DNA of 18,098 bases. It comes from a virus (taxonomy: Duplodnaviria > Heunggongvirae > Uroviricota > Caudoviricetes). Numbering within the stretch: position 1 is the stretch's first letter; every line of letters starts with the position of its first letter. Both the position numbers and the translations under genes were made by a program. The stretch spans positions 110,918-129,015 of the IMG/VR virus record IMGVR_UViG_2974695582_000001; one strand, written 5' to 3'. This document shows, piece by piece, positions 7,074 to 7,254 of this stretch. The notes under the pieces are model-generated. The model was not told the DNA's origin, made no database searches, and saw only the letters and a program-made list of their open reading frames with translations.

Positions 7074-7254
7074 AAAGGTCGAATTGCCTCTTGGTAATGA
7101 GTCCGTAGGTAAAAGTCCGTTGCGAGCGGAATGAATGGCAACCTACTGCGGCTAACCTTTCTCCTAGACGCCTGATGACCCCCGGATTATGGATTTGATA
7201 GTCGCGAATATCAATTACCATAACATCGGTTGCAAACGATAAAGGGGTGAGGGG
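7074..7254 (+). ncRNA. Candidate structured ncRNA with two multibranch domains and a possible kink-turn
   Basis: No credible + strand ORF. Nested helices AAAGGT/ACCTTT, ATTGCC/GGTAAT, GTAGGT/ACCTAC, TCCGT/GCGGA, TTATGG/CCATAA, TTGATA/TATCAA, ATCG/CGAT and CCCC/GGGG. Confidence 0.6.

What the first reader, a model, noticed from the sequence alone, without database searches (positions are those of the whole stretch)
7074..7254. Uncharacterised ~180-nt structured RNA bracketed by an AAGCTT element and a tRNA-like module
Seen: promoter 6985-7013, element 11, then domain 1 starting 2 nt after AAGCTT. Domain 1 has closing helix AAAGGT 7074-7079/ACCTTT 7155-7160, hairpin 7083-7098, helix GTAGGT 7105-7110/ACCTAC 7141-7146 and hairpin 7116-7130. 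Domain 2 has CCU-GAU-GA-CCCCC (7171-7183) against GGGG-U-GA-GGG (7244-7253). This fits the kink-turn consensus (3-nt bulge ending in U, tandem G.A/A.G) and encloses two further hairpins (7187-7223, 7225-7240). Inference: a discrete ncRNA whose 5' end is set at the AAGCUU element and whose 3' end is set by RNase P cleavage at the tRNA mimic, the logic used by MALAT1/mascRNA.
Basis: partly seen in the sequence, partly recalled or inferred. Interest (0 to 1): 0.78.

Follow-up and report, generated by a model that had tools for sequence, protein, structure and literature searches.

The report
Kink-turn-capped tRNA mimic plus separate RNA motif
A Streptomyces phage carries a non-coding gene made of separately conserved RNA modules, whose constant core is a tRNA look-alike that cannot decode and is preceded by a kink-turn; no library searched here holds such an RNA, and its function is unknown.

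Summary
The structures are real, but 7074-7254 is not one 180-nt RNA. The window is the right arm of a Streptomyces phage (Gilsonvirus, 99.8% identical to phage Karp).

- **Transcription unit.** The 405-nt gap between genes holds a promoter (6985-7013), a 5' hairpin followed by AAGCTT, two RNA modules, a tRNA-like element and a 3' hairpin.
- **Domain 1 (7073-7161).** This is an autonomous motif supported by covariation. In relatives it lies before or after the tRNA-like element.
- **Domain 2 (7171-7253).** This is a three-way junction closed by a kink-turn. It always abuts a tRNA-like element (7254/7255-7320).
- **Constant core.** In 18 distinct sequences from two lineages the kink-turn G.A/A.G pairs never vary, and four bases always separate the kink-turn from tRNA position +1. 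The -1:73 pair switches G-C to C-G, and the acceptor and T stems stay paired. The anticodon arm is hypervariable; in the window it is a 3-bp stem with a GNRA loop.

No frame is conserved, and Rfam matches only the tRNA-like part. I read the locus as a modular phage ncRNA built around a non-decoding tRNA mimic. RNase P processing is plausible but untested. Domain 1 occurs only in phages that also encode Ro60/Rsr, which is a weak lead.

The parts
6985..7013 (+). Sigma-70-like phage promoter: TTGACA, 17-nt spacer, TAAGGT. The inferred transcription start is near 7020.
   Evidence: Sequence. The exact motif occurs 6 times on the + strand of the genome and never on the - strand; shuffles average 0.025. 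Two copies precede tRNA genes. The generic promoter scan did not call it, because TAAGGT matches only 3 of 6 positions of TATAAT.
7031..7072 (+). 5' stem-loop (GGTGAGGG 7031-7038 / CCCTCACC 7059-7066) followed directly by AAGCTT (7067-7072)
   Evidence: Sequence. The hairpin with a hexamer of this kind (AAGCTT in most; BillNye, Circinus and Hain differ by one base) opens the homologous locus in relatives that have their own promoter. Genome-wide, 34 of 84 AAGCTT sites abut a perfect hairpin of 6 bp or more, against 8.8% of random positions.
7073..7161 (+). Domain 1 (d1), an autonomous ~89-nt structured motif. P1 is 7073-7079/7155-7161. P2 is 7083-7087/7094-7098. The alternative long-range pairing is 7083-7088 with 7137-7142. 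P3 is 7100-7101, 7103-7107 and 7109-7110 with 7145-7153, with U7102 bulged. P4 is 7117-7119/7127-7129 with the loop UUGCGAG.
   Evidence: 14 distinct homologues; 97.3% of cells paired against 28-50% for slid controls. P1 has 3 pairs changed on both sides. Alignment pair 39:78 switches G-C to C-G, 49:57 shows C-G, A-U and G-C, and the long-range pair 16:69 switches G-C to A-U. Single copy in each genome that has it.
7162..7170 (+). Linker with a conserved UAGAC-like stretch, directly 5' of the kink-turn
   Evidence: The motif (U/A)UAGAC(U)GCC recurs in front of the kink-turn in both the long and the minimal versions. Its role is unknown.
7171..7253 (+). Domain 2 (d2), a three-way junction closed by a kink-turn. 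The C-stem is 7171-7173/7251-7253 and the bulge is GAU 7174-7176. G7177.A7250 and A7178.G7249 are the non-standard pairs, and 3b.3n is C7179.U7248. The NC stem is 7180-7183/7244-7247. P2 is 7187-7192/7218-7223. P3 is 7195-7200/7209-7214 with loop GUCGCGAA. P4 is 7225-7228/7237-7240 with loop GUUGCAAA.
   Evidence: 13 distinct homologues, 23 pairs, 96.0% of cells paired, 9 pairs changed on both sides, all six P3 pairs covary. The GA..GA bases never vary in 18 sequences. The P3 and P4 loops each contain a 6-nt palindrome.
7254..7320 (+). Non-decoding tRNA-like element. G7254 is position -1 and pairs with C7320 (position 73). The acceptor stem is 7255-7261/7313-7319. The D-arm is 7264-7266/7278-7280 with GG at 7272-7273. 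The stub arm is 7282-7284/7289-7291 with GUAA loop 7285-7288. The T-arm is 7296-7300/7308-7312 with loop UUCGAAU.
   Evidence: Rfam tRNA model 38.8 bits (cut-off 29), with only 4 nt where the model expects 11 in the anticodon arm. ARAGORN finds no tRNA. Karp annotates it 'tRNA-OTHER'. Acceptor and T stems are 12/12 paired in 17 of 18 homologues and 11/12 in DekoN. The -1:73 pair is G-C 13 times and C-G 5 times; 2:71 is G.U in 17 of 18.
7326..7345 (+). 3' hairpin: UGAGGU / ACCUCA with conserved loop ACCAUAAA
   Evidence: The stem covaries among Gilsonvirus and Faust copies (GAGGT/ACCTC, GAGAT/ATCTC, GGGAT/ATCCC) while the loop is constant. In Wilnyevirus, Wakandavirus, Byblos and DekoN a GC-rich terminator-like hairpin followed by a partly T-rich tail takes its place.
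7379..7567 (+). Downstream small Cys-rich ORF (62 aa). It is context only and not part of the RNA.
   Evidence: Annotated as gene 246 in Karp. No Pfam or PHROG family. In Moab, Faust and Annadreamy its homologue follows d1 directly.

Best explanation
**What it is.** The interval lies inside one non-coding transcription unit of a Streptomyces Gilsonvirus phage, about 7020-7345. The unit is assembled from autonomous RNA modules.

**The constant core.** The core is a tRNA-shaped RNA (7254/7255-7320).
- It keeps everything that tRNA-handling enzymes read: a 12-bp stack of acceptor and T stems, a UUCGAAU T-loop, and GG in the D-loop that should form the tRNA elbow.
- It has lost the anticodon arm, which here is a 3-bp stem with a GNRA loop.
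- It is always preceded by a kink-turn at a fixed distance. The short C-helix of the kink-turn would stack on an acceptor stem lengthened to 8 bp by the -1:73 pair.
- In this phage the far arm of the kink-turn has grown into a three-way junction. Two of its hairpin loops carry 6-nt palindromes.

**Domain 1.** 'Domain 1' is a different, self-closing module that occupies a variable slot. In relatives it lies elsewhere in the unit, is replaced, or is absent.

**Proposed mechanism (inferred, not shown).**
- The phage promoter drives the unit.
- The tRNA-like body recruits host RNase P and the enzymes that trim the 3' end and add CCA.
- The -1:73 pair directs RNase P cleavage one nucleotide upstream of the usual site, as in bacterial tRNA-His.
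- This punctuates the transcript into stable pieces.
- The product is a tRNA mimic that cannot decode. It would act by occupying a factor that binds tRNA.
- I cannot decide whether the kink-turn arm stays attached or is released as its own small RNA.
For: **Identity and context**
- The 551-nt stretch around the finding (window 6900-7450) is 99.8% identical to Streptomyces phage Karp. All 33 records that match are Streptomyces phages.

**The two domains are separable**
- Module order differs among the relatives.

**Structure backed by covariation**
- Domain 2 and domain 1.

**Linkage of kink-turn and tRNA-like element** (18 distinct sequences, two lineages)
- The GA..GA bases of the kink-turn never vary.
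- Four bases always separate the 3' GA from tRNA position +1.
- The -1:73 pair is G-C 13 times and C-G 5 times.
- Acceptor and T stems are 12/12 paired in 17 sequences and 11/12 in DekoN.
- Five of the seven acceptor pairs (1:72, 4:69, 5:68, 6:67, 7:66) occur as more than one pair type.
- Five phages carry a minimal version: a kink-turn hairpin with a 3-4 bp stem and a GAAA loop.

**A tRNA body without decoding capacity**
- The Rfam tRNA model scores 38.8 bits, with the anticodon arm reduced to 3 bp plus 4 nt.
- ARAGORN finds nothing.
- The stretch between the acceptor stem and the T stem ranges from 34 to 48 nt. The loops there hold 4, 5, 6 or 8 nt.
- The stub stem and its GNRA loop covary: CUC-GUAA-GAG, CUC-GGAA-GAG and CUG-GAAA-CAG.

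**Not a spare copy of a decoding tRNA**
- The genome has 34 ordinary tRNAs and a tmRNA, including tRNA-Cys and tRNA-His.
- No paralogue goes beyond T-arm similarity.

**An RNA gene of its own**
- The recurrent promoter is present.
- Distant relatives have a terminator-like hairpin right after the tRNA-like element.
- G.U pairs fit only the + strand.
- No frame is conserved.

**Selection**
- In the Wilnyevirus and Wakandavirus records (BillNye, Circinus, Muntaha, Wakanda) and in Ankus, Byblos and DekoNeimoidia, the only part of the 551-nt query that still aligns is domain 2 and the junction with the tRNA-like element.

**Structured leaders next to real tRNAs**
- Several true tRNAs of this phage have a GC hairpin 2-4 nt upstream.
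Against: - No expression, end-mapping or processing data exist for any member. The transcript limits, RNase P cleavage, CCA addition and any binding partner are all inferences.
- A helix that reaches position -2 may hinder RNase P rather than guide it.
- Folding energy alone is not above chance.
- The family is small, with 13-18 distinct sequences from one phage subfamily. Much of the covariation therefore reflects few evolutionary events, and no R-scape-type test was available.
- The kink-turn is inferred from sequence only.
- No L7Ae-family protein is encoded by the phage. Such proteins are rare in the sampled genomes of the phylum taken to be the host's. If a protein is needed, its identity is open.
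- The hypervariable arm would also fit relaxed selection.
Confidence: 0.55

Rival explanations
1. One reading: one ~180-nt two-domain ncRNA (7074-7254). Its 5' end is cut at AAGCUU and its 3' end is made by RNase P at the tRNA mimic. The tRNA-like piece is only a processing signal, as in MALAT1/mascRNA.
For: - The tRNA-like element abuts domain 2 with no gap and passes the Rfam tRNA model.
- Hairpin-plus-AAGCTT elements recur in front of ribosome-binding sites, so they could be processing sites.
- After cleavage, the 3' end of domain 2 would be held in the kink-turn C-stem.
Against: - Domains 1 and 2 are not a unit. Their order and presence vary.
- The D-loop GG and the stub arm of the tRNA-like element are kept with compensating changes. 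The fixed spacing and the -1:73 covariation are also kept. This is more than a bare RNase P signal needs.
- No triple helix or other device to stabilise the 3' end was seen.
Confidence: 0.15
2. Domain 1 is a Y-RNA-like partner of the phage's own Ro60/Rsr protein. It would tether or regulate Rsr, and the flanking tRNA-like element would play the part of the tRNA-like module of bacterial YrlA.
For: - The phage encodes a TROVE/Ro60 protein with a 562-aa frame.
- TROVE was found in 6 of 6 complete genomes with d1 and in 0 of 4 complete genomes without it.
- The 5' part of d1 (GGUCGAAUUG) resembles the GNCGAAN0-1G motif proposed for Rsr recognition, and known YrlA RNAs carry a tRNA-like domain (PMC4201824).
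Against: - The co-occurrence amounts to about one phylogenetic contrast, clade against clade.
- The phage already has a YrlA-like RNA (Rfam 28.2 bits, below the cut-off) and a second Y-like RNA next to rsr, about 49 kb away. They share the motif UUCGGGUCGGAUG, which d1 lacks.
- 6 of 14 d1 copies have GUAGAA in place of GUCGAA.
- No Rfam YrlA hit in the window at E up to 10.
- d1 was not found in 151 sampled genomes of that phylum.
Confidence: 0.12
3. Domain 1, and perhaps domain 2, is a cis-acting leader such as a riboswitch or protein-binding element. It would control the downstream small ORF or the release of the tRNA-like element.
For: - In most relatives d1 ends 15-50 nt before the ribosome-binding site of a small ORF.
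- ATTGCC can pair with either of two partners, the local GGTAAT or the distal GGCAA(T). This resembles a switch.
- Kink-turns close several riboswitch aptamers and T-box Stem I (established knowledge).
Against: - The ORFs downstream of d1 begin in at least three different ways and have no known function.
- In the window's type d1 is followed by another RNA module, not by an ORF.
- No terminator or pairing that hides the ribosome-binding site is linked to d1.
- No Rfam riboswitch or T-box hit.
Confidence: 0.1
4. The element is a decaying tRNA gene: a former tRNA-Cys-like gene with a structured leader. The conservation would be historical and the RNA would have no present function.
For: - Relatives annotate the homologue as tRNA-Cys, tRNA-Leu or tRNA-OTHER.
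- The anticodon arm is degenerate and varies in length.
Against: - Acceptor and T stems remain 12/12 paired in 17 of 18 sequences (11/12 in DekoN) through many compensating changes. The D-loop GG, the T-loop and the kink-turn GA..GA bases never vary across several genera.
- The stub arm covaries while keeping a GNRA loop.
- In distant genomes the flanking sequence has diverged beyond alignment while domain 2 and the junction have not.
Confidence: 0.04
5. The region is a DNA-level signal (operator, replication or packaging site made of palindromes) or a protein-coding gene on the minus strand (ORF 6970-7422, 150 aa).
For: - The hairpins and their palindromic loops are near-perfect DNA palindromes.
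- A 150-aa minus-strand ORF spans the region.
Against: - The stem sequences change freely while staying complementary, which is the reverse of an operator.
- G.U pairs fit only the + strand.
- The minus-strand frame has stops in most relatives, and no frame is open in all of them.
- Every gene annotated in the Karp stretch around the locus is on the + strand.
Confidence: 0.03

Closest known systems
Bacterial and phage Y-RNA-like RNAs (YrlA) bound by Ro60/Rsr
   Same: These are non-coding RNAs with a tRNA-like module (T-arm, D-arm, acceptor-like stem) and no anticodon function. They occur in actinobacteria and their phages. M. smegmatis YrlA is cut by RNase P and receives CCA (PMC4201824). The phage studied here encodes Rsr.
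   Different: In YrlA the tRNA-like module is permuted and nested inside the Ro-binding stem, and the gene lies next to rsr. Here the tRNA-like element has normal 5'-to-3' order, carries a kink-turn on its 5' side and lies about 49 kb from rsr. The Rfam YrlA model does not match it.
MALAT1/mascRNA and other transcripts punctuated by tRNA-like elements
   Same: A tRNA-like element directly 3' of a structured ncRNA could let RNase P create the upstream 3' end.
   Different: That system is eukaryotic and nuclear, with a triple helix protecting the 3' end. No such device was seen here. The upstream partner here is a kink-turn joined at a fixed distance, and cleavage is untested.
Bacterial tRNA-His with its 8-bp acceptor stem (G-1:C73)
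   Same: Position -1 pairs with position 73, and this pair covaries (G-C 13 times, C-G 5 times). In bacteria such a pair shifts RNase P cleavage by one nucleotide (established knowledge).
   Different: There is no His anticodon and no usable anticodon arm. One lineage has C-1:G73. The genome has its own tRNA-His.
Kink-turns that close riboswitch aptamers and T-box Stem I
   Same: The motif is the same: a 3-nt bulge, tandem G.A/A.G pairs, and a kink at the base of a multi-helix domain. In T-boxes this occurs in an RNA that deals with tRNA (established knowledge).
   Different: There is no T-box sequence, specifier loop or antiterminator, and no Rfam hit. Here the kink-turn is covalently joined to the 5' end of the tRNA-like element. 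It is not part of a leader that binds a tRNA in trans.
GOLLD and ROOL RNAs, and phage T4 RNAC/RNAD
   Same: These are phage-encoded structured RNAs of unknown function located in or near tRNA regions. GOLLD and ROOL assemble through kissing loops (bioRxiv 10.1101/2024.12.08.627333). [quoted passage not shown]
   Different: Those RNAs are much larger (GOLLD and ROOL) or unrelated in sequence. None is described with a kink-turn joined to a tRNA mimic. Self-association of the RNA studied here is only suggested by its palindromic loops.

Membership tests
tRNA (Rfam RF00005) | Covariance-model score at or above the gathering score | tested here: met
   38.8 bits against a cut-off of 29 for 7255-7320 when a short stretch is scanned. 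It was missed in the scans of the whole window and of 551 nt. Homologues score 34.5-39.8 bits.
tRNA (functional, decoding) | Anticodon arm with a 5-bp stem and a 7-nt loop that presents an anticodon | tested here: not met
   The window has a 3-bp stem and a GUAA tetraloop. ARAGORN finds no tRNA. In homologues the stretch between the acceptor stem and the T stem ranges from 34 to 48 nt, and the loops hold 4, 5, 6 or 8 nt.
tRNA (functional, decoding) | Acceptor and T stems forming a 12-bp stack, a T-loop, and GG in the D-loop for the elbow | tested here: met
   12/12 pairs in 17 of 18 homologues and 11/12 in DekoN, T-loop UUCGA(A/G)U, GG present.
Kink-turn (simple, Kt-7 type) | 3-nt bulge followed by tandem G.A/A.G pairs, flanked by a standard C-helix and an NC-helix | tested here: met
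   CCU-GAU-GA-C-CCCC against GGGG-U-GA-GGG. The GA..GA bases never vary in 18 sequences. The NC pair 4b:4n switches C-G to A-U, and -1b:-1n is C-G or U.G.
Kink-turn (simple, Kt-7 type) | A kinked shape in three dimensions, or binding by an L7Ae-family protein | not testable with these tools
   No RNA 3D tool was available. There is no L7Ae (PF01248) gene in the phage. Only 1 of 151 sampled genomes of the phylum taken to be the host's has one over the cut-off.
YrlA / bacterial Y RNA | Match to the Rfam YrlA model, and a location next to rsr | tested here: not met
   No YrlA hit in 6900-7450 at E up to 10. The phage's YrlA-like RNA lies beside the TROVE gene, about 49 kb away.
YrlA / bacterial Y RNA | Rsr-binding motif (GNCGAAN0-1G near the 5' end) and dependence on Rsr | tested here: inconclusive
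   d1 has GUCGAA-UU-G in 8 of 14 copies and GUAGAA in 6 of 14. d1 and TROVE occur together in 10 of 10 complete genomes, but this amounts to about one clade contrast. Binding could not be tested.
T-box leader | Match to the Rfam T-box model, with a specifier loop and a T-box/antiterminator sequence | tested here: not met
   No hit. Domain 2 is a three-way junction, not a single Stem I hairpin, and no antiterminator is present.
MALAT1/mascRNA-type processing | RNase P cleavage at the tRNA-like element creates the upstream 3' end | not testable with these tools
   The arrangement is compatible: there is no gap, and a -1:73 pair is present. There are no data on RNA ends.
tmRNA | tRNA-like domain combined with a tag reading frame, as detected by ARAGORN or Rfam | tested here: not met
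   ARAGORN finds none in the window. The phage's tmRNA lies at genome positions 77592-77869.

The most novel reading that the evidence does not exclude
**Proposed reading.** The kink-turn-capped tRNA mimic would be a new class of phage ribonucleoprotein scaffold.
- RNase P would leave an 8-bp acceptor stem whose third pair is the nearly invariant G.U, present in 17 of 18 sequences. This is the pattern that alanyl-tRNA synthetase reads, so the mimic might be charged.
- The palindromic hexamers in the loops of the kink-turn arm (UCGCGA or UCUAGA, and UUGCAA) would drive kissing-loop dimers or larger assemblies.
- Domain 1 would recruit the phage's own Ro60/Rsr protein.
- Together they would form a modular phage system that captures or decoys host factors that handle or cleave tRNA. 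The hypervariable 'anticodon' arm would be the face exposed to an arms race.
Probability: 0.1. Interest if true: 0.85.

Novelty: new variant of a known kind. Interest (0 to 1): 0.62.

Why it matters
Phages with large tRNA sets are thought to use them to improve translation and to escape host defences that cut tRNAs. A conserved tRNA look-alike that cannot decode adds another kind of tRNA-shaped RNA to that picture.

It carries a kink-turn at a fixed distance from its 5' end and shares its transcript with exchangeable structured modules.

In the libraries and papers searched here I found no kink-turn joined to the 5' end of a tRNA-like element in bacteria or phages.

The locus also supplies two or more new RNA motifs with enough covariation to design experiments. 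It gives a concrete candidate for a further partner of a phage-encoded Ro60 protein.

It corrects database entries too. The homologues filed as tRNA-Cys, tRNA-Leu or tRNA-OTHER are probably not decoding tRNAs.

Tried and rejected
- **Rfam.** At gathering score on the whole window and at E up to 10 on 6900-7450, nothing relevant appeared except a weak hit to the tRNA-like sRNA SpF41. A scan of seven homologous loci returned only tRNA hits. The other cassette modules also have no family.
- **ARAGORN** on the window: no tRNA and no tmRNA.
- **Hammerhead reading of CUGAUGA.** Rejected. Relatives have CGGUGA, UUUUGA or CGUUGA, and no GAAA follows stem II.
- **Box C/D reading.** Rejected for the same reason, and because the host is a bacterium.
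- **Pairing between the P4 loop (UUGC) of domain 2 and the tRNA-like stub loop.** Not kept across homologues.
- **Kissing between the d1 loop UUGCGAG and the d2 P3 loop.** Possible in the window only and does not covary.
- **Origin of the tRNA-like element.** No closer paralogue among the phage's 34 tRNAs than shared T-arm sequence.
- **Wider searches for family members:**
  - IMG/VR pattern scans gave 4 and 2 true members.
  - The metagenome scan gave one new lineage, in Hainich groundwater. The other hits were chance.
  - The scan of 185,579 prokaryote genomes gave only chance hits.
  - The d1 model found nothing in 151 sampled genomes of the phylum taken to be the host's.
- **Small flanking ORFs.** No Pfam or PHROG family. 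The ORF upstream of the promoter is not homologous between clades.
- **Generic promoter and terminator scan.** It missed the phage's own promoter type and found nothing useful.
- **Literature.** No description of this locus or of a kink-turn in a bacterial or phage pre-tRNA leader.
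Full report
**1. Where the window comes from**

- The 551 nt around the finding are 99.8% identical to Streptomyces phage Karp (Stanwilliamsviridae, Loccivirinae, Gilsonvirus). All 33 records that match are Streptomyces phages.
- The window is the last 18 kb of a 129,015-bp phage record.
- That genome has 34 ordinary tRNAs, including tRNA-Cys and tRNA-His, and one tmRNA. All of them lie outside the window.
- The finding sits in a 405-nt gap between two small + strand genes.

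**2. The observation**

- Folding energy does not set the region apart. The z-score is -0.33 for 7074-7254 and -1.48 for 7014-7345.
- The evidence that counts is comparative.
- TTGACA-N17-TAAGGT is a recurrent promoter of this phage. It occurs 6 times on the + strand and never on the - strand, against 0.025 in shuffles. Two copies stand in front of tRNA genes.

**3. Two modules, not one RNA**

I fetched the homologous loci from relatives and from public virus and metagenome contigs. Placing each piece shows that the order is not fixed.

| Phages | Order of modules |
|---|---|
| Window, Karp, Forrest, Kenrey | hairpin-AAGCTT, d1, d2, tRNA-like, 3' hairpin |
| Gilson, Moab, Faust | hairpin-AAGCTT, d2, tRNA-like, 3' hairpin; d1 further downstream, just before a small ORF |
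| Annadreamy, Limpid, Beuffert | d1 starts 2 nt after the tRNA-like element |
| Byblos, BillNye, Circinus, Muntaha | no d1 |
| UViG37510, Hain, DekoN | a different self-closing module between AAGCTT and d2 |
| BillNye, Circinus | a further unrelated stretch in that slot (its structure was not analysed) |

- The place between the 5' hairpin and the kink-turn therefore acts as a variable slot.
- Domain 2, in contrast, abuts the tRNA-like element in every case, with no gap.

**4. Domain 2 and the kink-turn**

- A structural alignment of 13 distinct sequences gives this layout:
  - C-stem 7171-7173/7251-7253.
  - Bulge GAU 7174-7176.
  - G7177.A7250 and A7178.G7249.
  - A non-standard 3b.3n pair (C.U, C.C or U.G).
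  - NC stem 7180-7183/7244-7247, where one pair switches C-G to A-U.
  - A three-way junction with P2, P3 and P4.
- On the MAFFT alignment, 96.0% of cells are paired, against 32-53% in the slid controls. Nine pairs change on both sides, and all six P3 pairs covary.
- The P3 loop comes in two unrelated versions, GUCGCGAA and UUUCUAGAG. The P4 loop is (G/A)UUGCAA(A/G). Each contains a 6-nt palindrome. This suggests loop-loop self-association but does not show it.

**5. A minimal version shows what is constant**

- Sham, TunaTartare, Beuffert, Annadreamy and Blueeyedbeauty lack the three-way junction. They keep a plain kink-turn hairpin: a 3-nt bulge (GAU; AAU in Blueeyedbeauty), GA, C, a 3-4 bp stem, a GAAA loop, C, GA.
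- After four more bases comes a tRNA-like element whose acceptor sequence shares only 4 of 7 positions with the window's.
- Across all 18 distinct sequences:
  - The GA..GA bases never vary.
  - The distance from the 3' GA to tRNA position +1 is always four bases.
  - The -1:73 pair is G-C 13 times and C-G 5 times.
  - The 2:71 pair is G.U in 17 of 18.
  - Every acceptor pair and all but one T-stem cell form standard pairs. Five of the seven acceptor pairs and two of the five T-stem pairs occur as more than one pair type.
- The constant unit is therefore a kink-turn followed by a tRNA-like element. 'Domain 2' in the window is its elaborated form.

**6. The tRNA-like element**

- Scanned alone, 7255-7320 passes the Rfam tRNA model at 38.8 bits, in the canonical register. 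The anticodon arm is reduced to 3 bp plus GUAA.
- ARAGORN rejects it. GenBank records call the homologues tRNA-OTHER, tRNA-Cys or tRNA-Leu.
- The stub arm covaries while keeping a GNRA loop: CUC-GUAA-GAG, CUC-GGAA-GAG and CUG-GAAA-CAG. The 'tRNA-Cys' copies have C-GCAA or C-GUAA loops. Other copies have 6- or 8-nt loops.
- The D-loop GG and the T-loop are kept.
- So the parts read by RNase P, the CCA-adding enzyme and other factors that recognise the tRNA elbow or acceptor stem are under selection. The part read by the ribosome is not.
- It is not a recent copy of any decoding tRNA of the phage.

**7. Domain 1**

- Fourteen distinct copies support four helices:
  - P1, where three pairs change on both sides.
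  - A local hairpin P2.
  - P3, with a bulged U and a G-C to C-G switch.
  - P4, where one pair appears as C-G, A-U and G-C.
- ATTGCC (7083-7088) can instead pair with the distal GGCAA (7137-7141). A G-to-A change in the first segment is matched by C-to-T in the second. This means either a pseudoknot or two alternative folds.

**8. Not coding, and not a DNA signal**

- No frame on either strand is open in all the homologues. The 150-aa minus-strand ORF of the window has stops in relatives.
- Stem sequences change freely while staying complementary, and G.U pairs fit only the + strand.

**9. The Ro60 lead**

- The phage encodes a TROVE/Ro60 (Rsr) protein.
- Next to that gene lie a YrlA-like RNA (Rfam 28.2 bits, below the cut-off) and a second RNA that shares its 5' motif.
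- TROVE was found in all six complete genomes that have d1. It was found in none of the four complete genomes that lack d1. A positive control confirmed that the d1 model detects known copies.
- This equals roughly one clade against another, so it is a lead and not proof.
- The resemblance of d1 to the proposed Rsr motif (PMC4201824) is short and holds for only 8 of 14 copies.

**10. How it most likely works**

*Shown:*
- The modular anatomy, the conservation, the covariation and the promoter motif.

*Inferred:*
- The unit is transcribed from about 7020.
- Its tRNA-shaped body is handled by host tRNA-maturation enzymes.
- The -1:73 pair shifts RNase P cleavage by one nucleotide, as in bacterial tRNA-His.
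- The resulting stable, non-decoding mimic acts by binding some factor that recognises tRNA.

*Open:*
- Whether the kink-turn arm is released or stays attached. Structured leaders 2-4 nt upstream of true tRNAs are common in this phage, so a structured leader does not rule out cleavage.
- What partner, if any, the kink-turn has. It is unlikely to be L7Ae.

**11. Comparison and novelty**

- Its nearest functional relatives are bacterial Y-RNA-like tRNA mimics, transcripts punctuated by tRNA-like elements, and the unexplained phage RNAs that lie near tRNA genes. These are GOLLD and ROOL and T4 RNAC/RNAD.
- It belongs to none of those families.
- The family is confined, as far as searched, to Loccivirinae phages and a few environmental contigs.
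- I rate it a new variant of a known kind, a tRNA-mimic ncRNA, with at least one further new motif (d1) beside it.

Noticed in passing
window 467-10113 (20 sites); whole genome G000: A GC-rich hairpin followed directly by AAGCTT recurs between genes, usually 10-25 nt before a ribosome-binding site. Of the 84 AAGCTT sites in the genome, 34 abut a perfect hairpin of 6 bp or more on the + strand, against 8.8% of random positions. In some copies the hairpin loop holds the -35 box TTGACA. These could be processing sites, terminators or protein-binding sites.
   Followed up: partly
G000:C1 about 68,500-71,100 (outside the window); L038 500-760 and 1336-3024: The phage encodes a Ro60/Rsr (TROVE) protein with a 562-aa frame. 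Just upstream lie a YrlA-like RNA (Rfam 28.2 bits, below the cut-off) and a second RNA that shares the motif UUCGGGUCGGAUG...AUAUCCGUG.
   Followed up: partly
L021 about 1085-1195; L022 (reverse strand); L015 about 600-690; L003 about 1085-1170: In three relatives another self-closing structured module fills the slot between AAGCTT and the kink-turn. One such module is shared by UViG37510, the Hainich contig and DekoNeimoidia, and its closing helix covaries. BillNye and Circinus carry an unrelated stretch there whose structure I did not analyse. None has an Rfam match.
   Followed up: no
L011 1405-1545; L012 1150-1290; L021 about 1330-1470: A conserved segment of about 110 nt lies between the tRNA-like element and d1 in Faust, TunaTartare and UViG37510. 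It contains a GGGGGTTC...GAACCCC hairpin. It may be a further RNA module.
   Followed up: no
L008 909-1348; L010 811-1250: In Emma1919 and Phredrick an HNH endonuclease gene starts 4-5 nt after the point where similarity to the tRNA-like element ends. It replaces the last bases of the acceptor 3' strand and the trailer, and the G.U at 2:71 becomes G-C.
   Followed up: no
G000:C1, upstream of tRNAs at 4150, 76162, 81952 and 86407: Several true tRNAs of the phage have a short GC hairpin with a UUCG or GAAA loop ending 2-4 nt before position +1. Structured leaders next to tRNA 5' ends are therefore common in this genome.
   Followed up: no
window 6842-6973 (+): A 43-aa ORF rich in arginine and lysine, with an FCGSKCC motif, ends 11 nt before the promoter. 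A 132-nt ORF lies just upstream of the locus in Gilsonvirus, Faustvirus and Sham. It has no Pfam or PHROG family and is not homologous to the ORF at that place in BillNye.
   Followed up: partly
GenBank records of relatives (L002, L003, L017, L041, L004, L007): The homologous tRNA-like elements are annotated as tRNA-Cys, tRNA-Leu or tRNA-OTHER. Their 'anticodon' loops are irregular: C-GNAA pentaloops, or 6- and 8-nt loops. These labels probably do not describe decoding tRNAs.
   Followed up: partly
window 6970-7422 (-): A 150-aa ORF on the minus strand spans the whole locus. It has stops in relatives and is almost certainly spurious.
   Followed up: yes
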